A stretch of DNA of 56,275 bases from Planctomycetota bacterium (GCA_003669125.1 QWQF01000151.1:1-56275), one strand, 5' to 3'. Positions 2,478-52,700 are shown, numbered from the stretch's first letter. Notes: generated by a model not told the origin, from the sequence alone. Numbers and translations are program-made.

Positions 2478-5333
2478 TTATGGCGCTTCGATCAGTTCGG
2501 CGGGTGCGACTGTTCGCGTCTGGCGCGGGAGCGGTGTGGCGGACGTCGCCGATCGCGGTTCGCTTTCGGAGCGAGAGCTACCGAGTACGGTCGGCGACGC
2601 GACGCGCGACAGCCAACTGGTGAAGTTGGTGACCGATGACGAGGCCACGATTGGTGTCGGTCCGGACGATTCCACGCGAGGCAGCGGAGTCATCGTCGCG
2701 GACGTGAGCAACTCGACCAACATCGTTGTGGAGGTCAGCAGAATCGCCGGACTGCCGGGCATCGGCCCTGCTGCGGTCTCGGCGGCGGCAGCGGCGATGA
2801 TCGGCAGTGTTGAGTCACGGCGAGCAATCGTCAGCGCGGTGCGGCTCTCCGGAGTGCGTGCCGCTGACTCGGTGGATTCGATGCGACTGGGGTTGCGGAT
2901 CGTTGCGATGTCGCTGCGAGCGGTGTTCGCGGCGAGCAATGTCGGCGGCAGATTGGGTTGCGGTCCCGGACTTTCGACGCGCGGCGGTGTGTTGGCTGCG
3001 AACGAGTTGATCGTTTCCGGTGTTGCACTCGTCGCGGGAAGCACGACTTCTTCGGTCAGCGGAACGGCTTTGGGAACGGCCGGCGACTTCGCGGGAAGTG
3101 TCGCCGTCAGAGCATTCGCGGTGGGCGAGCTGACCGATGATCCTGTGACGGTCGAAACAGTTCGATTCGGCGGCAACAGCGAACGAGCAGTGATGTCGTT
3201 GGATGTCGTCGGCTTTCCGATCGGAGCCGCCTCGGTTCGTAGCACGCTGAGCGATTGGGTCGGCAACGGCAATTCGGTCGCAGCGATCGGAGTCACACCT
3301 GGCAGCGCTTCCGGTTCGATGAGATTGCTGGGCGCGGTGGCTCGGCTCGTCGCGCCACTGCGTGCGAGCGAGGTCAATCGTGAAACGTCGGCATCGGACG
3401 AGAGGAGAGCGGGTGGTGGCGTGAGCTGGGTGACTCGCGCGGCGGGAGCACGCAGTGCGGCCTGATTCGCGGCGGCCGGTGGCACGGTTGTTCGCTCGGT
3501 GGCCGATGGGACGAAGGTTTGTTGCGCGGTGCTCGTCGGTACGACGGCATGCGGCTTCTCAGGCTCGGAGGTGACGGCGGTGAGTGTCGCCTCTTCGGCC
3601 GGTCGTGCAGTCGGTCGTGTCAGCACCGAAGGGATCTGTTGTCGCGCGAGGACCGCGAGCCGCGTCGACTGGCTTTGCAGCGGATCGATGTCGGAAATGT
3701 GAGCGATCTCCGATCGTTGGCGGACGGTCCCCCGATCGCTGGGCCACCGCGCCGCAGGTCGCAACGTCACCGTATTGGATGGCGACGCGACCGGCTGCGG
3801 AGCACTCTTGGTCAACGTGTCGAAGCGGTCGAGCTTCGGCAGTTCGACGGCGTGTGACAGATCGAGATCCAGAAACGTCGCGACAGCTAAACCCTCGGCA
3901 TTAAACGCTGACAACGGGCCGGTCGAAGGCGGCGACGAATTCCAAATCGTGGTTCGGAACGCGAACAACAGTCCGGCAGCAATGACGATGGCTGCGACTG
4001 CCAGTCGACGGCGTCTGTGCCGAACCGGTTCCGGCTTCAACGGGACAACGGGTGGCGGCGCAGGGTCGCTGCCGAGCGTCGCGGAGGCAACCAACGGGTT
4101 CACCGGCTTGGCGGCTGCCGGTACTTCAACTGGCGCGGTGATCGTCCAACTGGCGAGCGGATTTTTCGGCGGCTCGCTGCGCTTCGGCGCGGCGGTCGTC
4201 GGACGGGTCACGACGGGAACGACGACTGCGGCGGCGCGTGCTCGACGGGACCAGCGCCACACGAGCAGAAACAAGATGACTCCAGCAAACGGCACGCCCC
4301 ATCTCGCTCGGCCGAATGGTTCGAGGTGCGCGGTGCTGATTGCCAATCGTGAGACGACGTACTCGCTGCGTGACAGGAAGATCTGCTTCGGCCCGTCGCG
4401 TTTGCTGACGAACGCGAGCGAGCGACCGTCGGGCGAGAATGCAGCGTCGAGATCGTCCACGTCGGACGCGATGCCGTCGCGCAGTCGCTCGGCCGCGCCG
4501 GCTTGGCCGTCGCGCAGCGGTGCTCGGAAGAAGGCGAACGGAACCGGTTCACCGGATCGACCGCCGCGATTCGAGGCGAACAGCAGCGAGCTTCCGTCTG
4601 GCGAGACCGCTGGGCTGCGTTCGTGGAAGTCGGGCAAGTTGGCAGACTCGACCGGTTGCGGTGCTGACCAAGCGGCGTCGAGAGCTTCGCGCCGCGTCAC
4701 GAACAGGTCCGCCTTTTCGCCCGGCGCGACGCGGACAAAAAACATCGTCAGTCCGTCCGGGGCGAGGGCTGGATCGAACTCGGCGGCATCCGTGTTGATC
4801 GTCGCTCCGGCATTGCTTGGTCGAGACCAATGGTTGCCGTCGTTCGTGGCTTCGTAGAGATCGAAGCCGCCGTGACCACCCGATCGGTTCGATACCAACA
4901 CTGCCGTCCGCCCGTCGGCGGTGAGTGTCAGACGGCGGTCATCATCGACGCTGTTGAGTTCGCGCACCGACTCTGGTTTCGACCAATGTTCTTCGACCAG
5001 CTTCGAGCGAACGATGTCCGCTTTCTGACCGGGCCGCGCGCGAGAAAAAAACAATGTCTGGCCGTTATCGGCAAAGCACGGTCCGGAGAGTTCGGTTTCG
5101 TCGGCCAGCGATCCTTTGCCGGAGAACTCGCCCAGCAACTCGGCCGTGCGAAAGGCGAGTCGTCCGGTCGGTGGCGTTGAGCCTGACTCGTTCGTTTCAT
5201 CGACCACCACGTCGTGCAGCAGCGGTCTCGGCAACGACCAGATCAGTCCGGCGAAGGCGGCCACAACGAAGAACCATCGGCCTCGGCGGGGCCGGTTCGG
5301 TTGGACGGGCGTGTCGGACGGTGGCGTCGGCAT
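2478..5333 (-). CDS. Membrane-anchored PD40/TolB-like beta-propeller repeat protein with a long Pro/Ala/Thr/Ser-rich tail
   Basis: ATG at 5333. N-terminal TM segment (RRGRWFFVVAAFAGLIW). Repeated PD40-like units (e.g. FSPDGRSLAF, VSPDGSSLLFASNRGG, LAPDGLTMFF). Further hydrophobic segments follow, then about 550 aa of low-complexity sequence. Confidence 0.7.
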   Translation of the reverse strand: MPTPPSDTPVQPNRPRRGRWFFVVAAFAGLIWSLPRPLLHDVVVDETNESGSTPPTGRLAFRTAELLGEFSGKGSLADETELSGPCFADNGQTLFFSRARPGQKADIVRSKLVEEHWSKPESVRELNSVDDDRRLTLTADGRTAVLVSNRSGGHGGFDLYEATNDGNHWSRPSNAGATINTDAAEFDPALAPDGLTMFFVRVAPGEKADLFVTRREALDAAWSAPQPVESANLPDFHERSPAVSPDGSSLLFASNRGGRSGEPVPFAFFRAPLRDGQAGAAERLRDGIASDVDDLDAAFSPDGRSLAFVSKRDGPKQIFLSRSEYVVSRLAISTAHLEPFGRARWGVPFAGVILFLLVWRWSRRARAAAVVVPVVTRPTTAAPKRSEPPKNPLASWTITAPVEVPAAAKPVNPLVASATLGSDPAPPPVVPLKPEPVRHRRRRLAVAAIVIAAGLLFAFRTTIWNSSPPSTGPLSAFNAEGLAVATFLDLDLSHAVELPKLDRFDTLTKSAPQPVASPSNTVTLRPAARWPSDRGTVRQRSEIAHISDIDPLQSQSTRLAVLARQQIPSVLTRPTARPAEEATLTAVTSEPEKPHAVVPTSTAQQTFVPSATERTTVPPAAANQAALRAPAARVTQLTPPPALLSSDADVSRLTSLARSGATSRATAPSNLIEPEALPGVTPIAATELPLPTQSLSVLRTEAAPIGKPTTSNDITARSLLPPNRTVSTVTGSSVSSPTANALTATLPAKSPAVPKAVPLTEEVVLPATSATPETINSFAANTPPRVESPGPQPNLPPTLLAANTARSDIATIRNPSRIESTESAARTPESRTALTIARRDSTLPIIAAAAAETAAGPMPGSPAILLTSTTMLVELLTSATMTPLPRVESSGPTPIVASSSVTNFTSWLSRVASPTVLGSSRSESEPRSATSATPLPRQTRTVAPAELIEAP

Positions 5334-6288: not shown

Positions 6289-7137
6289 TCATGAGGGCAG
6301 AATGATGTCGGACAGGCCGAGGACTTGTTTGACTTCGTCGAAGCTCAGCAGTTCGTCGGCCAGTGAGTCGATTCGGCCTTCGCGGAACAGCGTCTTCGCG
6401 AGCTGACGCACGACCGAACCGGTTGCCAGCAGCGTCGCGACGGGATCGACCATAATTTTGAAGCCGAGTTCTTGCAGCTCCTCTGCGCTGAGGATCGGAG
6501 TGACTCCGCCGAGCAGCATGTTGGCGAGTTGCGGATACGGCACCTCGCGCGCGATGCGGACGAGTTCGTCGCGGCTGCGTGGGGCTTCGACGAAACAGAC
6601 GTCGGCTCCGAGTTCGCCGTAGCGGCAGGCTCGTTCGATGGCGGCGTCGAGTCCTTCGATGGCTCGCGCGTCGGTGCGGGCAAAGATCACGAAGTCGGGG
6701 TCGCAGCGCGCGTCGAGGGCGACCCGCAGTTTCTTGAGCATCTCGTCGGCGGGGATGACTTGCTTGCCAGCGAAGTGTCCGCAGCGTTTCGGGCTGACTT
6801 GGTCTTCGAGCAGGATGCCGGCGGCTCCGGCTTGCTCGAAGTCGCGGACGGTGCGGGCAACGTTGTGCAGATCGCCGTGGCCGGTGTCTCCGTCAGCGAC
6901 CAGCGGAATGCTGATCCGCGCAGCCATGCGACGCACGGCTTCGGTCATTTCGGAAAGCGTGACCAAGCCGACATCCGGCCAACCGAAGACGCTCGCCGAG
7001 ACGCCGAATCCGCCGAGAAACAGCATTTCGCAGCCAGCTTGTTCGAGCAACCGGGCGGTGAAAACATCGTGCGGCGCGAGCGTCCGGATGATGCCCGGTC
7101 GGGCGAGTCGTTCACGCAGTCGGCGTGCGGTGGTCAT
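6289..7137 (-). CDS. Isocitrate lyase / PEP mutase superfamily enzyme (methylisocitrate lyase or carboxyvinyl-carboxyphosphonate phosphorylmutase-like)
   Basis: ATG at 7137 (MTTARRLRERL...). Motifs match the ICL/PEPM family: PLVADGDTGHG, ILLEDQVSPKRCGH, ARTDA. The longer track ORF (to 7545) only reads through the REP-B repeat. Confidence 0.85.
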   Translation of the reverse strand: MTTARRLRERLARPGIIRTLAPHDVFTARLLEQAGCEMLFLGGFGVSASVFGWPDVGLVTLSEMTEAVRRMAARISIPLVADGDTGHGDLHNVARTVRDFEQAGAAGILLEDQVSPKRCGHFAGKQVIPADEMLKKLRVALDARCDPDFVIFARTDARAIEGLDAAIERACRYGELGADVCFVEAPRSRDELVRIAREVPYPQLANMLLGGVTPILSAEELQELGFKIMVDPVATLLATGSVVRQLAKTLFREGRIDSLADELLSFDEVKQVLGLSDIILPS

Positions 7138-7165
7138 GGGTGTTCCTCGGACATGGTGCAGCATT

Positions 7166-7264
7166 TCTCCCTCCCCCTTTGGGAGAGGACCGGAGTGAGG
7201 GGGCCGTTGATCATTGCATCCCTCGTTCGGCCTTCGGCCACCTTCTCCCAAAGGGAGAAGGGTC
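7166..7264. repeat. REP-like element, family B, copy 1
   Basis: A ~99-bp element with nested hairpins (ccttctccc-aaa-gggagaagg; tctccc...gggaga). Its reverse complement aligns along its whole length with 17463-17561. It lies in a divergent intergenic region. Confidence 0.8.
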
Positions 7265-7352
7265 ATTGGTTGCCGCGAGCTTGCTCTTCGCAGTGGGGCT
7301 GTCCCATCATGCCGACCCTCGACTGGTTTTCCAATCAACGCGGAGGTCTTCC

Positions 7353-8774
7353 ATGAGGCTGTTGAACGTGTTCGGAGTTTGTCTGCTGACGATCGCTGTT
7401 GCTCAAGCGAATGCCGCCGAAGTTTGGTCGCGGTTCCGAGGCGAAGGGGGATCGGGACGGGCCGCGGCCGGATCGAAGTTGCCGACGGAGATTGCGCCGG
7501 ACAAGCACGTCGTTTGGAAGATCGACTTGGCTCCGGGACATTCATCGCCGGTCGTCTTCGGCGATCGAATTTACGTCACAGCCGAGAAGGACAAACACCT
7601 CGTGACGATCTCGCTCGACCGCGCGACCGGCAAGACGCTGTGGGAGAAGGTCGCTCCGCACGAGAAATTCGAGTCGGTGCATGGCATCGGCAGTCACGCT
7701 CAGTGCAGCCCGACGACGGACGGCGAGCGAGTCGTCGCGCTGTTCGGAAGCTGCGGGCTGTTTTGCTACGACCGAGAAGGCAAGGAACTTTGGAAAGTCC
7801 CGATGGGTCCGTTCAAGAACGAGTTCGGGGCCGGCAGTTCTCCGCAGATCGTGGACGACCGCGTCATCGTCTGTCAGGACCACGACACCGATTCGTTCCT
7901 CGCGGCGTATGACAAGCAGACCGGCAAGGTGCTGTGGCGGACGGATCGGGCGGAGTTTCCTCGCAACTACTGCACTCCGATGGTTTGGACGGTGAACGGC
8001 AAGAAGCAGATCATCATTGCGGCGACTCTGCGCGTGATCGGCTACGACTTCGAAACCGGCAAGGAGCTGTGGACGGTGCGCGGGATCTCGCGGATGGTCT
8101 CAATCAGCCCACTGCTGACCGAGTCGGGAATGTTGATCGCCGGTGGCTGGGCGGCTGGCGGCGAAGAGACCGAACGGATTTCGGTCGAGCCGTTCTCGGT
8201 CATCAAGAAAGACATCGACAAGAACAACAACGGCACGTTCGAGAACGACGAACTTCCCAAGGGGGACATCAAGCAACGCTTCCCACAAGTCGATCGCAAC
8301 AAGGATGGCTCAATCACCGAGGCGGAGTACGAATACTTCCGCTCGCTGTTCGAGCAAGGACAGAACTCGATCGTCGCGATCAAGCCAGGGGCCAACGGCG
8401 AGGCGACGGACTCGCACTTGCTCTGGAAGCAACGCAAGCTGATCCCGTTCTGTTCGTCACCGGTCTCTTTCGGGGACTTCGTGTTCACGATCAAGGACGG
8501 AGGGATCTTCGCCTGCCTCGACGCCAAGACCGGCAAACATGTCAAACAAGGCCGAGCCTCCGGGACCGACGAGTACTACAGCTCACCGGTTGCCGGTGAC
8601 GGCAAAGTCTATTTGATCGACGAGGAAGGACGGCTGACGGTGCTCAGCGCCGACCGCGAATGCCGCACGCTGCACACGGCCGAGTTCGGCGAGAAGTCGT
8701 TCGCGACTCCCGCGATCGTCGACAACCGCATTTACCTGCGGACGAACAGACACCTGTATTGCTTCGGCGAGTGA
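7353..8774 (+). CDS. Secreted PQQ-like (BamB-type) beta-propeller repeat protein with an internal EF-hand pair
   Basis: ATG at 7353 preceded by GGAGG. Signal peptide MRLLNVFGVCLLTIAVAQANA. Repeated PQQ-like blades (SSPVVFGDRIYV, LWKVPMG..., GKVLWR, GKELW). Two canonical EF-hand loops, DKNNNGTFENDE and DRNKDGSITEAE (about nt 8211-8330). Confidence 0.8.
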   Translation: MRLLNVFGVCLLTIAVAQANAAEVWSRFRGEGGSGRAAAGSKLPTEIAPDKHVVWKIDLAPGHSSPVVFGDRIYVTAEKDKHLVTISLDRATGKTLWEKVAPHEKFESVHGIGSHAQCSPTTDGERVVALFGSCGLFCYDREGKELWKVPMGPFKNEFGAGSSPQIVDDRVIVCQDHDTDSFLAAYDKQTGKVLWRTDRAEFPRNYCTPMVWTVNGKKQIIIAATLRVIGYDFETGKELWTVRGISRMVSISPLLTESGMLIAGGWAAGGEETERISVEPFSVIKKDIDKNNNGTFENDELPKGDIKQRFPQVDRNKDGSITEAEYEYFRSLFEQGQNSIVAIKPGANGEATDSHLLWKQRKLIPFCSSPVSFGDFVFTIKDGGIFACLDAKTGKHVKQGRASGTDEYYSSPVAGDGKVYLIDEEGRLTVLSADRECRTLHTAEFGEKSFATPAIVDNRIYLRTNRHLYCFGE

Positions 8775-8870: not shown

Positions 8871-9002
8871 CGTTTTTGGCGTGAGCGATCGGCGAACAAT
8901 CGCGTGAAACCTCGCGTTCCCACGTTTCGGGGGCACAGCTAGACTGCGGACGTTTTGCGAATCCATGAATTTTTCGACATCGCGGGTCCGAAGGAGTTTC
9001 CC

Positions 9003-10022
9003 ATGCGTGTTTTTTCTTCCAAGTGGCCTTGGCTGACGGTCGCGGCACTGTCGGCAGGCGTGATCGTCGCTGGCGGCAACTTCACGCTGGCGTGGCAGAA
9101 TCAAAATCCTCGAACGCGAACAAACTCGAGTCTGCAACTCGATGATTCGGACCCAGAAGTGAAAGTCCTTCGTGCTCCCGGCGAAGTCACGTTGCCGAAG
9201 TGCTCGGTCAAGCTGCTCGACAGTGTGATCTTGGCGACTGACCGGCCGGGGTTGATCATGAACGTCGAACCAAAAGAAGGGGATGAAGTCGCAAAGGATC
9301 AAGCGATCGTCTTCCTGAAGGACGATGCACTGGTGGCGATCTATGAAGTCGCCAAAGAAAAGGCGGAGAACGACATCAACAAGCAGTTTGCCGAGGCCTC
9401 CGCGGCAGTGGCTAAGGCTGAACTGGAGAAGATGCTCGAAACCAACCGTAAAGTTCCGGGGGCGATCCCCTCGACCGAAGTCGAGCGTGCTCGACTGAAC
9501 TTCATCAAAGCCCAGTTGCAGGGCAAGCAAGCGGAACATGAGCAGGTGGTCGCAAGACTGGAAACGAAAAAGGCTGCCGCCGAATTGAAATCCTGCAAGA
9601 TCGAAGCCCCGTTCGACGGCAAAGTCCGAAAAGTGCTCAAGCACAAAGGGGAAGCGGTGACGCAAGGCACGCCGATCCTGGAACTCATCAGCACGCGGAT
9701 CGTGAGAGTCGAGGGGTATCTGCCGGTTGAAGACTTGTGGAGCGTGAAACGCGGTGACCCCGTCGAGGTGCAGATCGACTTCCCGGATCGCGAATTGGAG
9801 ATCGAAAAAGAGGTCTTCCAGGGCAAGGTGTACTTCATCGATTCGACGGTCAGCCCGGTGACACATGGAGCTCGCGTTTGGGCCGAGGTCCAGAATCCGG
9901 ACGAAAAGTTGATCGAAGGTTTGTACGCCAAGATGACGATCAAGCACGGCCGACGTGCCGCCGGAACTGCGAAGAAGGTCCCTGCAGCGTCCGGCATCAA
10001 ACAGGCCGGTGCCACGAAATGA
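9003..10022 (+). CDS. HlyD-family periplasmic adaptor (membrane fusion protein)
   Basis: ATG at 9003 preceded by AAGGAG; the track start at 8955 is a TTG. N-terminal TM anchor. Lipoyl-like halves (VEPKEGDEVAKDQAIVFL; IEAPFDGKVRKVLKHKGEAVTQGTPILEL) flank a coiled-coil segment, with a beta-barrel C-terminus. Confidence 0.8.
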   Translation: MRVFSSKWPWLTVAALSAGVIVAGGNFTLAWQNQNPRTRTNSSLQLDDSDPEVKVLRAPGEVTLPKCSVKLLDSVILATDRPGLIMNVEPKEGDEVAKDQAIVFLKDDALVAIYEVAKEKAENDINKQFAEASAAVAKAELEKMLETNRKVPGAIPSTEVERARLNFIKAQLQGKQAEHEQVVARLETKKAAAELKSCKIEAPFDGKVRKVLKHKGEAVTQGTPILELISTRIVRVEGYLPVEDLWSVKRGDPVEVQIDFPDRELEIEKEVFQGKVYFIDSTVSPVTHGARVWAEVQNPDEKLIEGLYAKMTIKHGRRAAGTAKKVPAASGIKQAGATK

Positions 10023-10086
10023 CGAACGGCCGTCTGTCGTCGTTCATCGCTCTCTGCCGCCCCAACTTCCCCGAAGCTGACCGCTC

Positions 10087-12321
10087 ATGTCGATCGCTGG
10101 CAATCCCGCTCAATCATCGCTGACTCCGTCCAATCGACGGCCGATTCCCTTGCAGGTTCGGCCCGACTTGCGGATCGAGCGCATTGAATACCAGGGCGTC
10201 GCCTACTGGGTCGTCAAAGAGCCGGTCGGGTTGAAGTACTACCGCTTGCAGACCGAGCAGTACGAAGTCCTGCACTTGCTGGACGGCAAACGCAGCCTCG
10301 AAGAAGTTCGCGACGAGTTGCTCCGCATCCTGCCGACCGTGCGGTTGCAAATGAGCGACATTCAGCACTTGATCACCGACCTGCACGAGAAGGGTCTCGT
10401 TCACAGCAATCGCATGGGCCAGGGAGCCGCGTTGCTCAAGCAGAAGAAGGACAACTTCCGCAAAAAAGTGTGGCAGACGCTCCGCAGCTTGCTGTACTTG
10501 CGGCTGCCCGGTTGGGATCCGGAACGGACGCTGACATTCCTCGATCCGCTGTTCGGCTGGTTGTTCCGACCGGTGGGTCTGGTTCTGATGACGCTGTTCT
10601 GCGTCGCCTCGTGGGTGATGCTGGGGACACGCTTCAACGACTTCACCGACCAAATCCCTGAGTTTCAGCAATTCTTCGGCTGGCCAAACATGGCCTACCT
10701 GTGGGTCACTCTGGCCTGTTGCAAGATTCTGCATGAGTTCGGTCACGGGCTAAGCTGCAAAGTCTACGGCGGCGAATGCCACGAAATGGGGGTGATGATG
10801 CTCTGCTTCAGCCCCTGCTTGTACTGCGATGTCTCGGACAGTTGGACGCTGAAGAACAAGTGGAAGCGGATCATGATCGGCGCGGCCGGCATGTACATCG
10901 AAGCGATCATCTCCGGCTTCGCCATCTTCTTTTGGGCCTACACCGAAACCGGCCTGATGCACCACCTGTGCTTGAACATCTTCTTCGTGACGTCGATCAC
11001 GACGGTGATCTTCAACGCAAACCCGTTGATGCGGTTCGACGGCTACTACATGCTGGCGGACTTCCTCGAAATCCCGAACATGCGGCCCAAAGCCGACAAG
11101 CTGATGCGCGAGAACTTCGCGTGGTACTGCCTGGGGATCGAAGCCAAGCCGGACCCGTTCATGCCGGAGACCGGCAAGTTCTGGTTCATCGTCTTCGCGG
11201 TCACGGCCAACATCTACCGCATCTTCGTGATGGTGGCGATCCTGACATTTTTCTACACCGTCCTGAAACCGTATGACTTGCAGAGCCTCGGGATCACGAT
11301 GGCCGTGTTCTCGTTCGCCGGCATCATCTACTCGATGTTCCACAACCTTTACCAGATTCTCACTGCTCCAAGGATCGAACCCATGAGCCGTCCCAAAATC
11401 ATCGCGACCTGCACGGTGCTCGTGACTGTTCTCGGCGTGGGATTGTTCGTGCCGATCCCCTGGCACGTCGAGGCGATGTTCATCGTCGAACCGCACGACG
11501 TGCAACACGTTTATTCGACCACGCCCGGTTTCCTGCGCGAGCAATACGTCGCCGAGGGACAGCGTGTCCAAGAAGGCGATCCGCTCTTCGATCTGGAGAA
11601 CCCCGAAAAGGACGACAAGAAGCGCGAGATGATCGTCCAGGGCAACGTGGTCATGGCCGAGATTCGCGTGCATCGCGCCACCGGCTCGATCGCCGAGGAA
11701 GAGATCGCCAAAGAGAAATTGCAGACCGTCAAAGAGCAGCTCGCCGAATACGAGCATCAACTCTCGCAGTTGAAGATCGACGCCCCCTGCAACGGAGTGG
11801 TGATCGCGCCGCCGTCCGCACCGGAACCTAAGTCTGATGAAAGTCGCCTGCAACTGGCTGCTTGGCATGGCACTCCCTTGCTGCCGAGAAACCGCGACAG
11901 TTTTCTCGAAGAACGCGCGCACGTTTGCAGCATCGCACCGGACGATAAATTCCAAGCCACGTTGCTCGTCGATCAAAAGGACCGCAACGACATCGACATC
12001 GGCACGGCCGTCGAGTTGAAATTCGACTCGCTGGCTGCCAGGACCTATGTCGGCAAGGTCGAAAAGATCTCCGACCGCCATCTGGAATTCGTGCCGCAAC
12101 TGCTATCCAACAAACTCGGCGGCGAAGTCCCGACCACAACGGACGAACAAGGCCGCGAACGACTCGTCAGTGCCGCGTACCAAACGACGGTCCTACTCGA
12201 AGAGGACATCCCGCTGCTCCGTTCCGGCATGCGTGGCCGTGCCCGCTTCTCGATCGGCCATCGATCCGCGTGGGACTGGATCTGGCGCTACATCAAAACG
12301 ACGTTCCATTTCCGCCTCTGA
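10087..12321 (+). CDS. Fusion protein: PqqD/RRE-like N-terminal domain, site-2 protease (peptidase M50) membrane domain, and HlyD-like C-terminal domain
   Basis: ATG at 10087. HEFGH at about nt 10732-10746 and NANPLMRFDGY at about 11014-11046 form the complete S2P zinc site, spread over multiple TM helices. The C-terminus carries lipoyl/beta-barrel motifs (IDAPCNGVVIAPP, GMRGRARFSIG). N-terminal residues ~45-107 resemble a PqqD-type winged helix (EVLHLLDGKRSLEEV...LITDLHEKGLV). Confidence 0.8.
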   Translation: MSIAGNPAQSSLTPSNRRPIPLQVRPDLRIERIEYQGVAYWVVKEPVGLKYYRLQTEQYEVLHLLDGKRSLEEVRDELLRILPTVRLQMSDIQHLITDLHEKGLVHSNRMGQGAALLKQKKDNFRKKVWQTLRSLLYLRLPGWDPERTLTFLDPLFGWLFRPVGLVLMTLFCVASWVMLGTRFNDFTDQIPEFQQFFGWPNMAYLWVTLACCKILHEFGHGLSCKVYGGECHEMGVMMLCFSPCLYCDVSDSWTLKNKWKRIMIGAAGMYIEAIISGFAIFFWAYTETGLMHHLCLNIFFVTSITTVIFNANPLMRFDGYYMLADFLEIPNMRPKADKLMRENFAWYCLGIEAKPDPFMPETGKFWFIVFAVTANIYRIFVMVAILTFFYTVLKPYDLQSLGITMAVFSFAGIIYSMFHNLYQILTAPRIEPMSRPKIIATCTVLVTVLGVGLFVPIPWHVEAMFIVEPHDVQHVYSTTPGFLREQYVAEGQRVQEGDPLFDLENPEKDDKKREMIVQGNVVMAEIRVHRATGSIAEEEIAKEKLQTVKEQLAEYEHQLSQLKIDAPCNGVVIAPPSAPEPKSDESRLQLAAWHGTPLLPRNRDSFLEERAHVCSIAPDDKFQATLLVDQKDRNDIDIGTAVELKFDSLAARTYVGKVEKISDRHLEFVPQLLSNKLGGEVPTTTDEQGRERLVSAAYQTTVLLEEDIPLLRSGMRGRARFSIGHRSAWDWIWRYIKTTFHFRL

Positions 12322-52193: not shown

Positions 52194-52700
52194 ATGAGCG
52201 TGCCCGTTGTTCCCAAGGTGTCGCCGGATGTCACAACGACGGCCTATCACGAAGCGGGGCATGCCGTCGTCGCGCTGGCTCTGGGCCGCGCGGTGCAACG
52301 TGTCAGCATCTTACCGGGACACGCCTGGCTTGGCCGCTGCGAGTTCCAAAAGGGACGGGTTCGGCCCTTGGAAGATTGGCTGGAACGTGAGATTCTGATT
52401 TCACTCGCCGGCGCAGCGGCCGAGGCTCGACACACCGGAGCGTATGCCTGGGACGGAGCCAGCGCCGACCTGCGAGCCGTCCGCCGACTTGCCGTGCAGC
52501 GAGCCGGCGAACGCCAAGCCGAACGACTCGAACGCCGTCTCTTGGCTAAGGTGGAACATCTGCTCAATCAAGCCGGTCACTGGCAAGCGGTCGAACTCAT
52601 CGCGGTGGAACTGCTGCGTCGCGAAACCATCAGCGGCCGAGCCGTTCGCCATCTGTTCGACCAGGGAAACAAACAGGCTGACGCCTCGGCCGGGCCGTAG
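52194..52700 (+). CDS. Stand-alone FtsH-type (peptidase M41-like) zinc metalloprotease domain protein
   Basis: ATG at 52194. TAYHEAGHAVVA is the FtsH HEAGH zinc motif. It is followed by the RVSILPG, LAGAAAE and GASADL segments, which parallel the M41 domain. Only 168 aa, with no TM or AAA+ module. Confidence 0.7.
   Translation: MSVPVVPKVSPDVTTTAYHEAGHAVVALALGRAVQRVSILPGHAWLGRCEFQKGRVRPLEDWLEREILISLAGAAAEARHTGAYAWDGASADLRAVRRLAVQRAGERQAERLERRLLAKVEHLLNQAGHWQAVELIAVELLRRETISGRAVRHLFDQGNKQADASAGP

What the first reader, a model, noticed from the sequence alone, without database searches (positions are those of the whole stretch)
9003..12321. Pump-less two-gene module: HlyD adaptor plus a PqqD/RRE-like - M50 site-2 protease - HlyD fusion
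Two co-directional genes are separated by 64 nt.
- Gene 1 is a classical single-TM membrane-fusion (HlyD) adaptor.
- Gene 2 (744 aa) combines three parts not normally found in one polypeptide. (i) A cytoplasmic N-terminus whose pattern (YYRLQTEQYEVLHLLDGKRSLEEVRDELLRILP...MSDIQHLITDLHEKGLV) resembles the PqqD-type RiPP recognition element. (ii) A polytopic domain with a complete site-2-protease zinc site (HEFGH and NANPLMRFDGY). (iii) A C-terminal HlyD-like lipoyl/beta-barrel region.

No ABC, RND or MFS pump, outer-membrane factor or peptide-modifying enzyme flanks the pair. Upstream is a PQQ propeller gene and downstream a convergent CRTAC1 gene. The nearest precedent I know for an M50 protease in peptide maturation is YydH of the Bacillus yydFGHIJ operon.

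The combination suggests a self-contained peptide recognition, intramembrane cleavage and periplasm-spanning export or signalling device. I cannot tie it to a characterised system.
Basis: partly seen in the sequence, partly recalled or inferred. Interest (0 to 1): 0.7.

Follow-up and report, generated by a model that had tools for sequence, protein, structure and literature searches.

The report
Protease–adaptor pair of giant-adhesin secretion module
These two genes are an ordinary member of a very large, experimentally unstudied bacterial family that most likely recognises, trims and helps export giant surface proteins, rather than a unique peptide-antibiotic device.

Summary
Gene 1 (9003-10022) is a single-TM HlyD/MFP adaptor. 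Gene 2 (10087-12321, 744 aa) has a cytoplasmic PqqD/RRE domain, a 7-TM M50 site-2 protease with an intact zinc site, and a periplasmic MacA/MexA-like adaptor. No pump lies nearby.

The fusion is not unusual. More than 4,000 protein clusters (50% identity) and 588 species genomes share it, from Planctomycetes to E. coli plasmids. Gene 1 sits directly upstream in 64 of 81 loci. RRE fused to a site-2 protease is already known from the daptide protease MpaP.

The pair is the core of a module described in silico by Kamneva et al. (2015): M50-HlyD, short HlyD, GAF-HlyD, a secondary SecA_DEAD ATPase and sometimes TolC. I found those parts patchily linked in related loci.

In 11 annotated proteobacterial operons a large repeat protein lies immediately upstream; ten are giants of 2,300-12,700 aa. 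Eight of nine readable N-termini carry the LEPR-XLL motif (NF012209).

Best reading, inferred and not shown: the RRE binds this leader, the M50 domain cleaves it, and the adaptors with TolC carry the protein out. The window itself encodes no substrate, ATPase or TolC.

The parts
8991..8996 (+). Shine-Dalgarno-like AAGGAG, 6 nt before the ATG of gene 1
   Evidence: Read directly from the sequence. It supports the 9003 start over the upstream TTG at 8955.
9003..10022 (+). Gene 1: short membrane-fusion (HlyD/MFP) adaptor, 339 aa, with an N-terminal TM anchor (aa 11-29)
   Evidence: TIGR01730 scores 100 bits (cut-off 94.9); Pfam HlyD_D23, HlyD_3 and Biotin_lipoyl also hit. TM. A homolog lies directly upstream of the gene 2 homolog in 64 of 81 loci. 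Its profile matches the short MFP of the proteobacterial operons (62-95 bits in five operons, 30 bits in Kosakonia).
10087..12321 (+). Gene 2: RRE - M50 site-2 protease - MFP fusion, 744 aa
   Evidence: AlphaFold model has pLDDT 81.4.
10150..10407 (+). Cytoplasmic PqqD/RRE-type winged-helix domain (aa 22-107: three strands, then three helices)
   Evidence: AlphaFold pLDDT 85.6. Foldseek top hits are PqqD, TbiB1 with leader and lasso B1 with leader. Pfam PqqD hits 20 of 21 family members. The top PDB profile hit is 3g2b.
10522..11448 (+). Polytopic M50 domain (aa 146-454), about 7 TM helices, N-in/C-out, with a cytoplasmic beta-hairpin at aa 233-248
   Evidence: Secondary structure. Hydropathy and positive-inside tally. 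Pfam PF02163 is above its gathering score. NF041824 covers aa 38-422.
10732..10746 (+). HEFGH zinc-binding/catalytic motif (aa 216-220)
   Evidence: H216, E217 and H220 are invariant in alignments A1, A3 and A5.
11014..11046 (+). NANPLMRFDGY motif (aa 310-320), carrying the third zinc ligand D318
   Evidence: N310, P313 and D318 are invariant from Planctomycetes to Gammaproteobacteria.
11452..12267 (+). Periplasmic membrane-fusion region (aa 456-727): lipoyl halves, a 27+26-residue alpha-hairpin (aa 506-560) and a beta-barrel
   Evidence: Foldseek matches MacA, MexA and AcrA at E about 1e-11 over roughly 300 columns. The family profile hits MacA 4dk1 at 8e-9. Pfam HlyD_3 and HlyD_D23 hit.
12268..12318 (+). 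Conserved C-terminal helix with a TFxFRL-type ending (aa 728-744)
   Evidence: R734, T739, F740, F742, R743 and L744 are invariant among 17 planctomycete homologs. R734 is also invariant in Proteobacteria. Its role is unknown.

Best explanation
Genes 1 and 2 are the conserved inner-membrane and periplasmic core of a widespread secretion module that resembles type I secretion but lacks an ABC transporter. Kamneva et al. (2015) first noticed the module next to secondary SecA_DEAD genes.

Proposed mechanism:
1. The cytoplasmic RRE domain of gene 2 binds a short N-terminal leader of the LEPR-XLL type (consensus hydrophobic-E-x-R-x-hydrophobic-hydrophobic-S/D-A/G). Very large repetitive adhesin-like proteins carry this leader and have no Sec-type hydrophobic signal.
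2. The M50 active site, near the cytoplasmic face of the membrane, cleaves the leader.
3. The periplasmic adaptor region of gene 2, the short adaptor of gene 1 and, where present, a third GAF-HlyD adaptor form the duct to a TolC-like outer-membrane channel.
4. Where present, a SecA-like ATPase and the small DUF3467 protein drive or chaperone the substrate.

In this genome only the two core genes are linked. The other parts and the substrates, if they exist, lie outside the 56 kb.

Shown here: the domain folds, the motifs, the inferred topology, the family's size, the gene linkage across phyla, and the leader motif on linked giant proteins.

Inferred, not shown: leader binding by the RRE, cleavage by the M50 domain, the route through the inner membrane, and the energy source.
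For: 1. Anatomy.
- RRE fold.
- Intact and invariant M50 site.
- MFP fold.
- N-in/C-out topology places the RRE and the active site on the cytoplasmic side and the MFP in the periplasm.

2. Homology to a known RRE-guided leader peptidase.
- NF041824 (daptide MpaP) scores 180.6 bits over aa 38-422.
- Streptomyces mpaP aligns to aa 41-494.
- MpaP is described as an RRE-dependent intramembrane leader peptidase (PMC10036551).

3. Module membership.
- Gene 1 is directly upstream in 64 of 81 loci.
- GAF-HlyD occurs in about 20 loci, SecA_DEAD in 8, OEP in 11 and DUF3467 in 6 of the 80 planctomycete loci. They are scattered over the whole gene 2 tree, including lineages next to the window's clade.
- These are the components listed by Kamneva et al..

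4. Substrate clue.
- All 11 annotated proteobacterial loci have a large protein immediately upstream on the same strand; in ten it is a giant of 2,300-12,700 aa, and in Phyllobacterium it is 1,412 aa. The unannotated Ensifer locus has an ORF of at least 3,342 aa that ends just before the module.
- Eight of nine readable N-termini carry the LEPR-XLL motif.
- NF012209 scores 29.6 and 30.7 bits on two of them (cut-off 17).
- Profiles built from planctomycete loci recognise each operon part.

5. Planctomycete loci also contain large proteins with the leader near gene 2 homologs. They carry Big_9/cadherin, DUF5649, DUF4347+cadherin or RTX repeats, and one passes NF012209 (19.8 bits).

6. Leader subtype tracks operon type: xLL-S/N-AD with the SecA/DUF3467 type, and xF/Y-D-G/A with the TolC-first type.

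7. Conventional pumps are absent: an ABC-like gene lies near only 1 of 36 well-flanked loci, and none occurs in the proteobacterial operons.
Against: - No experiment exists on any member. I found no paper beyond the 2015 in-silico description.
- The window itself has no LEPR-type protein, GAF-HlyD, SecA_DEAD, DUF3467 or OEP. For this genome the module context is extrapolated from orthologs.
- In planctomycete loci, LExRxLL proteins are not significantly enriched near gene 2 (p about 0.1). The substrate link therefore rests on proteobacterial homologs that share only 20-26% identity with gene 2.
- One proteobacterial locus (Phyllobacterium) has a 1,412-aa neighbour without the motif.
- No M50 protease is known to form a protein-conducting channel.
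- The TolC-first operons, including the E. coli one, contain no ATPase at all.
- RRE-leader binding could not be modelled, because no multimer prediction was available.
Confidence: 0.55

Rival explanations
1. Tether-and-release variant. The same module secretes the giant adhesin, but the N-terminal leader stays bound to the RRE as a cytoplasmic anchor, so the protein remains threaded through the duct. M50 cleavage is then a regulated release step, not a signal-peptidase step, and is controlled by the GAF-HlyD sensor. This would work like LapG/LapD control of LapA.
For: - A GAF sensor domain is fused to the third adaptor in many loci (PMC4452313).
- The substrates are adhesin-like repeat proteins.
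- The RRE and the active site are on the cytoplasmic side, where an N-terminus retained in the cell would lie.
Against: - Nothing distinguishes this reading from constitutive leader removal.
- The window's clade has no linked GAF-HlyD.
- MpaP, the closest characterised relative, simply removes a leader.
Confidence: 0.15
2. One reading: a RiPP-type device. The RRE binds the leader of a small precursor peptide, the M50 domain cleaves it, and the fused and partner adaptors export the mature peptide, as proposed for EpeP/YydH and MpaP.
For: - The RRE fold and homology to MpaP.
- M50 proteases act in the epipeptide, pearlin and daptide pathways, and EpeP is thought to both cleave and export (PMC10885120).
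Against: - No conserved short ORF was found within -3 to +1.8 kb of the gene pair in 80 loci.
- No radical-SAM, YcaO, LanB/C, methyltransferase or other modifying gene recurs among the neighbours.
- NF041824 and NF058609 scores are far below their equivalog cut-offs.
- The gene tightly linked in Proteobacteria is a multi-thousand-residue protein.
Confidence: 0.1
3. Ordinary adaptor proteins for an unlinked ABC, RND or MFS pump. Planctomycete genomes often scatter functionally related genes, and the M50 domain would be an accessory (for example quality control) rather than the inner-membrane core.
For: - Both proteins have bona fide MFP folds.
- NCBI's pipeline names the homologs 'HlyD family efflux transporter periplasmic adaptor subunit'.
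Against: - Proteobacterial operons that already include TolC and two or three adaptors still lack any pump gene.
- Only 1 of 36 planctomycete loci has an ABC-like neighbour.
- The M50 catalytic site is invariant over the whole family.
Confidence: 0.08
4. Regulated intramembrane proteolysis for signalling. Gene 2 would act like RseP or SpoIVFB and cleave a membrane-anchored regulator such as an anti-sigma factor. The periplasmic HlyD-like region would sense envelope status, as PDZ domains do in RseP.
For: - Signalling is the canonical role of M50 site-2 proteases (established knowledge).
- Some homologs carry a PDZ insertion in the periplasmic region.
- A GAF partner suggests signalling.
Against: - No sigma or anti-sigma gene recurs nearby.
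- The RRE, SecA_DEAD, TolC, multiple adaptors and linked giant secreted proteins all point to export.
Confidence: 0.05

Closest known systems
Type-I-secretion-related module linked to secondary SecA_DEAD proteins (Kamneva, Poudel and Ward 2015, PLoS One, PMC4452313)
   Same: It has the same protein set: a Peptidase_M50+HlyD protein (gene 2), an HlyD/biotin-lipoyl protein (gene 1), a GAF+HlyD protein, SecA_DEAD and sometimes OEP. It lacks an ABC transporter and occurs in Planctomycetes and Proteobacteria. I recovered all of these parts in loci orthologous to the window.
   Different: The window has only two of the parts linked. The paper reported only weak M50 similarity and did not recognise the RRE domain, DUF3467 or any substrate. 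It is purely computational.
MpaP/DapP, the RRE-dependent intramembrane protease of daptide biosynthesis (Ren et al. 2023, PMC10036551; NCBIfam NF041824)
   Same: It has an N-terminal RRE fused to an M50 site-2 protease. Homology is direct over aa 38-422 (180.6 bits; tblastn E about 1e-19).
   Different: MpaP is about 380 aa with no periplasmic adaptor and comes from Gram-positive hosts. It sits in a gene cluster with small precursors and the MpaB/C/D/M modifying enzymes, none of which occur here. The score is below the 300-bit equivalog cut-off.
EpeP/YydH/LiaK epipeptide M50 proteases of Bacillus (NF058609)
   Same: It is an M50 intramembrane protease that removes a leader, and it is suspected of also exporting the product (PMC10885120).
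   Different: The similarity is much weaker (36.7 bits against a cut-off of 225, covering the M50 core only). These proteins have no RRE and no MFP, and their substrate is a small peptide.
Peptidase-containing ABC transporter systems with MFP and TolC (for example colicin V CvaAB-TolC). From my own knowledge, not tested here
   Same: The functional logic is the same: an N-terminal leader is recognised and cleaved at the inner-membrane component while the cargo passes through an MFP-TolC duct.
   Different: There the protease is a C39 cysteine peptidase domain of an ABC transporter that supplies both channel and ATPase. Here the protease is an RRE-guided M50 metalloprotease with no ABC component.
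LapA/LapBCE with LapG-LapD, the giant RTX adhesin type I secretion system. From my own knowledge, not tested here
   Same: It uses dedicated MFP-TolC-type export of multi-thousand-residue repeat adhesins. Proteolysis of the adhesin's N-terminus controls its fate, and a cytoplasmic nucleotide sensor is involved.
   Different: Lap uses an ABC transporter and a C-terminal secretion signal. LapG is a periplasmic cysteine protease. There is no sequence relationship to gene 2.
TriABC-OpmH, a tripartite pump with two different adaptors (PDB 6vej appears)
   Same: It is a precedent for two non-identical MFPs working in one assembly, as proposed for gene 1 and gene 2.
   Different: It is an RND-driven small-molecule pump with no protease.

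Membership tests
Peptidase M50 / site-2 protease | HExxH motif in a TM helix | tested here: met
   HEFGH lies at aa 216-220 inside helix 199-227. It is invariant in alignments A1, A3 and A5.
Peptidase M50 / site-2 protease | Second motif NxxPxxxxDG, supplying the third zinc ligand | tested here: met
   NANPLMRFDG lies at aa 310-319. N310, P313 and D318 are invariant across phyla.
Peptidase M50 / site-2 protease | Pfam PF02163 at or above its gathering score | tested here: met
   29.5 bits against 27.2.
Peptidase M50 / site-2 protease | Proteolytic activity | not testable with these tools
   This needs biochemistry.
RiPP recognition element (PqqD-like) | Winged-helix fold: a three-stranded sheet followed by three helices | tested here: met
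   The model has b29-35, b38-45, b50-54, a56-64, a71-81 and a89-101 with pLDDT 85.6. Foldseek top hits are PqqD 5sxy, TbiB1 5v1u and lasso B1 6jx3 (probability 1.0, target TM 0.59-0.72).
RiPP recognition element (PqqD-like) | Pfam PF05402 at or above its gathering score (23.4 bits) | tested here: inconclusive
   The window sequence scores 13.6-17 bits. However, 20 of 21 family members match (best E 2.4e-6), and several homologs carry precomputed PF05402 hits.
RiPP recognition element (PqqD-like) | Binds a leader peptide as an added strand next to beta3 | not testable with these tools
   No multimer prediction or binding assay was available. The beta3 residues Y51 and R53 and the alpha3 residues L99 and H100 are conserved, which is consistent but not a test.
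Membrane fusion protein / periplasmic adaptor (HlyD, MacA, AcrA type) | Lipoyl, alpha-hairpin and beta-barrel domains in the periplasm behind a TM anchor | tested here: met
   Gene 1: TIGR01730 scores 100 bits, above its cut-off. Gene 2 aa 456-727: Foldseek matches MacA, MexA and AcrA at E about 1e-11, and the hairpin is at aa 506-560.
Membrane fusion protein / periplasmic adaptor (HlyD, MacA, AcrA type) | Partnered with an ABC, RND or MFS inner-membrane transporter | tested here: not met
   Profile, blast and motif checks found none in the window. Only 1 of 36 related loci has an ABC-like gene nearby. None occurs in the complete proteobacterial operons.
Daptide protease MpaP (NF041824, equivalog) | Score at or above 300 bits | tested here: not met
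   180.6 bits. It is a homolog, not an equivalog.
Daptide protease MpaP (NF041824, equivalog) | Located in a cluster with daptide precursors and MpaB/C/D/M enzymes | tested here: not met
   The neighbours are a PQQ propeller, a CRTAC1-like gene, arg genes and others. No conserved short ORFs were found.
YydH/LiaK epipeptide protease (NF058609, equivalog) | Score at or above 225 bits | tested here: not met
   36.7 bits.
Kamneva 2015 T1SS-related / SecA_DEAD module | Peptidase_M50+HlyD protein next to a short HlyD/biotin-lipoyl protein | tested here: met
   This is the window pair. The pairing is conserved in 64 of 81 loci. Its profiles recognise the corresponding genes of the proteobacterial operons.
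Kamneva 2015 T1SS-related / SecA_DEAD module | GAF+HlyD protein, secondary SecA_DEAD ATPase and OEP in the same locus | tested here: not met
   All are absent from the 56-kb window. They are present in many orthologous loci spread over the gene 2 tree. The paper notes that components can be encoded elsewhere in the genome.
Classical type I secretion system | ABC transporter (HlyB type) plus a C-terminal secretion signal on the substrate | tested here: not met
   There is no ABC component. The candidate signal is N-terminal.

The most novel reading that the evidence does not exclude
The family defines a distinct protein-export pathway that has not been experimentally recognised. An N-terminal LEPR-XLL-type leader acts as a sorting signal. 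One polypeptide reads it with an RRE domain, removes it with an M50 protease domain and connects to TolC through its own adaptor domain, without any ABC transporter. In Planctomycetes this would be a general route for dozens of giant surface proteins per genome, and the window's gene pair would be its core. It would also be the first RRE known to recognise full-length proteins rather than small RiPP precursors.
Probability: 0.4. Interest if true: 0.85.

Novelty: new member of a known kind. Interest (0 to 1): 0.58.

Why it matters
Giant repeat adhesins with LEPR-XLL N-termini are common in Planctomycetes and Proteobacteria and also occur on E. coli IncF plasmids. I found no published account of how they leave the cell.

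If the RRE-M50-adaptor protein is their receptor, leader peptidase and duct, four things follow:
- It would define a new secretion route.
- It would extend the RRE concept from small natural-product precursors to whole proteins.
- It would explain a module that has been unexplained since 2015.
- It would give annotators a better name than "HlyD family efflux transporter periplasmic adaptor subunit".

The E. coli plasmid version makes the hypothesis directly testable in a standard organism. For this particular window the result is more modest: the pair is a typical family member, not a one-off invention.

Tried and rejected
- Conserved small ORFs as RiPP precursors around the pair in 80 loci: only antisense or shadow ORFs of neighbouring genes clustered; nothing credible.
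- LEPR-type motif in the window: none in six frames.
- OEP, GAF-HlyD, SecA_DEAD and DUF3467 in the window, by blast and profile: none.
- Positional enrichment of LExRxLL proteins near gene 2 in planctomycete loci: not significant (p 0.10-0.14). I do not use it as evidence.
- DUF3467 against PDB sequences: no meaningful hit. Its SecB-like chaperone role is only a guess.
- Source names for distant cluster representatives: almost none.
- Promoter and terminator scans around the pair: counts at chance level, uninformative.
- Whole-protein profile against PDB sequences: it found only MFPs and nothing for the M50 part. The Foldseek list for the full model was saturated by MFP hits, so the M50 fold rests on motifs and Pfam.
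- Literature searches for follow-up on the 2015 module, LEPR-XLL, DUF3467 and DUF4347: no functional study. Subscription-only papers were not searchable.
- The planctomycete-specific Cys/His cluster as a universal second metal site: rejected, because it is absent from the proteobacterial homologs.

Full report
**1. The observation**

The window has two co-directional ORFs:
- Gene 1 runs from 9003 to 10022 (339 aa). An AAGGAG Shine-Dalgarno sequence lies 6 nt before its ATG.
- Gene 2 runs from 10087 to 12321 (744 aa).
- The two are 64 nt apart.

Gene 1 has one N-terminal TM segment (aa 11-29). It passes the NCBIfam cut-off for RND-type membrane-fusion proteins (TIGR01730, 100 bits against 94.9) and hits Pfam HlyD_D23, HlyD_3 and Biotin_lipoyl.

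Gene 2 contains HEFGH (aa 216-220) and NANPLMRFDGY (aa 310-320). It passes the Pfam Peptidase_M50 gathering score (29.5 against 27.2). It hits HlyD_3 (40.5 bits) and HlyD_D23 (28.7 bits) in its C-terminal third.

Further out are metabolic genes only: a PEP-mutase family protein, a metallophosphoesterase, OTCase, a class-III aminotransferase, an amino-acid kinase, a HAD hydrolase and arginine decarboxylase. Blast, profile and motif checks of the 56 kb found no ABC signature, OEP, GAF-HlyD, SecA_DEAD or DUF3467.

**2. The three parts of gene 2**

*N-terminus.* The window sequence alone scores below threshold for PqqD (13.6-17 bits). The family-level evidence is consistent:
- 20 of 21 homologous N-terminal segments hit Pfam PqqD, with best E 2.4e-6.
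- The family profile's best PDB sequence hit is PqqD 3g2b.
- An AlphaFold model of aa 1-125 (pLDDT 85.6) has three strands followed by three helices.
- Its best Foldseek matches are PqqD and RREs solved with bound leader peptides: 5sxy, TbiB1 5v1u/5v1v and lasso-peptide B1 6jx3. ThcOx, CteB, TglHI, MibB and SuiB follow (probability up to 1.0, target TM 0.59-0.72).

*Middle.* This is a polytopic M50 domain. In the full-length model (pLDDT 81.4) the helices and the positive-inside tally fit seven TM helices with the N-terminus inside and the C-terminus outside. That places three things on the cytoplasmic side: the RRE, the beta-hairpin at aa 233-248 and the zinc site.

*C-terminus.* Residues 456-727 are a membrane-fusion fold with a lipoyl domain, a short hairpin (aa 506-560) and a beta-barrel. 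It matches MacA, MexA and AcrA at E about 1e-11.

**3. How common the architecture is**

The fusion is not rare.
- A word-indexed search found more than 5,600 relatives.
- An exhaustive search of 50%-identity cluster representatives found 4,278 at E<=1e-30. The best 150 are almost all 700-760 aa and align end to end down to 31% identity.
- One-genome-per-species contigs gave 588 confirmed loci. The best 80 are almost all labelled Planctomycetota; three carry other MAG labels.
- A profile built from the most distant members retrieves Pirellulales proteins.
- Full-length homologs at 20-26% identity occur on plasmids of Alpha-, Beta- and Gammaproteobacteria.

The catalytic residues H216, E217, H220, N310, P313 and D318 are invariant throughout.

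NCBI names the homologs variously as "HlyD family efflux transporter periplasmic adaptor subunit", "biotin/lipoyl-binding protein", "PqqD family peptide modification chaperone", "site-2 protease family protein" or "peptidase M50". JGI uses the YydH-derived name.

**4. Published precedents**

Two papers cover parts of the picture.
[quoted passage not shown] It describes MpaP as an RRE-dependent intramembrane leader peptidase. Gene 2 aa 38-422 match the corresponding NCBIfam model at 180.6 bits, below the 300-bit equivalog cut-off. Streptomyces mpaP aligns directly to aa 41-494.
[quoted passage not shown] It encodes a Peptidase_M50+HlyD protein, an HlyD/biotin-lipoyl protein, a GAF+HlyD protein, a secondary SecA_DEAD ATPase and sometimes an OEP, with no ABC transporter. 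They proposed a type-I-like secretion machine. They noted that parts can be encoded elsewhere in the genome, and they did no experiments.

I found no follow-up study.

**5. Context in relatives**

Across the 80 related loci plus the window:
- A gene 1 homolog lies directly upstream of the gene 2 homolog in 64. Seven more have no room on the contig.
- Other recurrent neighbours are a protein of about 670-730 aa with GAF domains, one TM and an HlyD region (about 20 loci), a SecA_DEAD/PP_bind/P-loop protein (8 loci), an OEP (11 loci within the fetched flanks) and DUF3467, which sits directly downstream of gene 2 in 6 loci.
- On a neighbour-joining tree these accessory genes are scattered over the whole family, including lineages next to the window's clade. 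The window's own clade (L001-L007, 79-94% identity) has only the pair.
- Only 1 of 36 loci with at least 5 kb on both sides has an ABC-like gene nearby.

That condition is not met.

**6. A candidate substrate**

In annotated proteobacterial replicons the module forms tight operons, and a large protein lies immediately upstream on the same strand in every annotated locus.

| Replicon | Upstream protein |
|---|---|
| Thalassospira marina | 4,033 aa, annotated LEPR-XLL domain-containing |
| Pontibrevibacter | 10,603 aa |
| Methylosinus | 8,847 aa |
| Azospirillum brasilense | 3,399 aa, DUF4347 |
| Kosakonia cowanii | 2,347 aa |
| Pseudosulfitobacter | 12,737 aa |
| Burkholderia anthina | 3,302 aa |
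| Alisedimentitalea | 8,148 aa |
| Azospirillum TSA2s | 4,330 aa |
| E. coli pABWA45_1 | 4,457 aa |
| Phyllobacterium | 1,412 aa |
| Ensifer (unannotated) | ORF of at least 3,342 aa |

Two operon layouts occur:
- giant, DUF3467, long HlyD, gene 2 homolog, SecA-like ATPase in most, short MFP, TolC;
- giant, TolC, short MFP, HlyD of about 450 aa, gene 2 homolog, with no ATPase.

Profiles built from the planctomycete loci recognise each part: the gene 1 profile gives 62-95 bits on the short MFP in five operons (30 bits in Kosakonia); gene 2 aligns end to end at 215-343 bits; the GAF-HlyD profile scores 46-73 bits; and the SecA_DEAD profile scores about 550 bits.

Eight of the nine giant N-termini I could read carry one motif within the first 60 residues or so:

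| Source | Motif |
|---|---|
| Thalassospira | VEPIEPRILLSAD |
| Pontibrevibacter | LDPMEPRVLLSAD |
| Methylosinus | FDTLEPRVLLNAD |
| Pseudosulfitobacter | LETFEPRVLLSAD |
| Kosakonia | WSLEPRMLFDGA |
| Azospirillum brasilense | ALEPRFMFDAAG |
| Burkholderia | LALEPRVVYDAS |
| E. coli | FALESRQLFDGA |

The exception is the 1,412-aa Phyllobacterium protein. The motif is NCBIfam NF012209, "LEPR-8K / LEPR-XLL domain" (29.6 and 30.7 bits against a cut-off of 17). None of these N-termini has a hydrophobic Sec-type core (read directly from the sequences). The leader subtype tracks the operon layout.

**7. The same clue in Planctomycetes, and its limits**

Eight large proteins with LExRxLL-S/T/A leaders lie within about 12 kb of gene 2 homologs in 7 of the 80 loci. 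One passes NF012209 at 19.8 bits. The four I scanned are adhesin-like:
- 17 Big_9/cadherin repeats;
- 21 DUF5649 repeats;
- DUF4347 plus cadherin;
- 19 RTX repeats plus Calx-beta.

Their closeness to gene 2 is not statistically significant (p about 0.1). Such proteins occur at roughly 6 per Mb of the sampled DNA, so they may simply be common and dispersed. The window itself contains none. For this genome the substrate link is therefore an extrapolation from distant homologs.

**8. Mechanism**

The best-supported reading has four steps.
1. The cytoplasmic RRE binds the LEPR-type leader.
2. The M50 site, at the cytoplasmic face, removes the leader, as MpaP does for daptide precursors.
3. The fused adaptor, gene 1 and, where present, GAF-HlyD form the periplasmic duct to TolC.
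4. SecA_DEAD and DUF3467 assist where they are present.

Shown: the folds, motifs, topology, conservation, linkage and leader motif.

Inferred: leader binding, cleavage, the inner-membrane path and the energy source.

Unexplained:
- No M50 protease is known to form a protein channel.
- The TolC-first operons contain no ATPase.

A close variant is that cleavage releases a tethered adhesin under GAF control, in the manner of LapG/LapD.

The small-RiPP reading is disfavoured because no short ORF or modifying enzyme is conserved. The hidden-pump reading and the signalling reading fit the complete proteobacterial operons poorly.

**9. Verdict**

The pair is real, intact and correctly described. It is a typical member of a very large family that has been described in silico but never characterised, so I rate it a new member of a known kind.

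Its interest lies in the family. The RRE assignment, the DUF3467 component and the link to LEPR-XLL giant proteins appear to be unreported in the literature I could search. The E. coli plasmid version is present in 24 of 5,426 complete genomes, which makes the hypothesis testable in a standard organism.

Noticed in passing
Gene 2 aa 224-247 (window 10756-10827): A Cys/His cluster (C224, C231, H232, C244, C247) is invariant in planctomycete homologs but replaced in all proteobacterial homologs. It may be a lineage-specific extra metal site or disulfides on the cytoplasmic beta-hairpin of the M50 domain.
   Followed up: partly
Homologs P0044-P0081 and P0103 (relative to gene 2 aa ~636-641): A subfamily of 822-829 aa carries a PDZ domain inserted into the periplasmic beta-barrel of the adaptor region. 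This recalls the PDZ domains of canonical site-2 proteases such as RseP.
   Followed up: no
E. coli plasmid pABWA45_1, NZ_CP022155.1 118682-138427 (L097/L098): IncF plasmids carry the module next to a 4,457-aa Ig-like/DUF4347 protein whose leader reads FALESRQLFDGA. It is present in 24 of 5,426 complete E. coli genomes, mostly on plasmids, and offers a tractable model.
   Followed up: partly
L083 11168-13084 (Methylosinus sp. C49, GYH34_RS19190): The gene is annotated 'prepilin peptidase' but scores 554 bits against the module's SecA_DEAD profile. This is probably a mis-annotation.
   Followed up: partly
window 7356-8774 (+): A PQQ-type beta-propeller protein has an EF-hand motif inserted at aa 304-335. 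It is linked to the pair only in the window's close relatives.
   Followed up: no
window 2478-5333 (-): A 951-aa protein has PD40 (TolB-like) repeats, a TM segment and a C-terminal tail of roughly 550 aa rich in Pro, Ala, Thr and Ser.
   Followed up: no
window 6289-7545 (-): The ORF for a PEP-mutase/isocitrate-lyase family protein has a low-complexity N-terminal extension of about 140 aa. The true start is probably further downstream. It also overlaps the long ORF call of the PQQ propeller gene.
   Followed up: no
window 52194-52700 (+): A 168-aa ORF contains a HEAGH motif near its N-terminus. I did not examine it.
   Followed up: no
L014, L015, L033, L053, L054, L059, L063, L067, L069, L071: About ten planctomycete loci have a gene 2 homolog without a gene 1-like gene upstream. 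Several instead have GAF-HlyD, SecA_DEAD or OEP directly downstream. They may represent a second arrangement or a paralogous set.
   Followed up: partly
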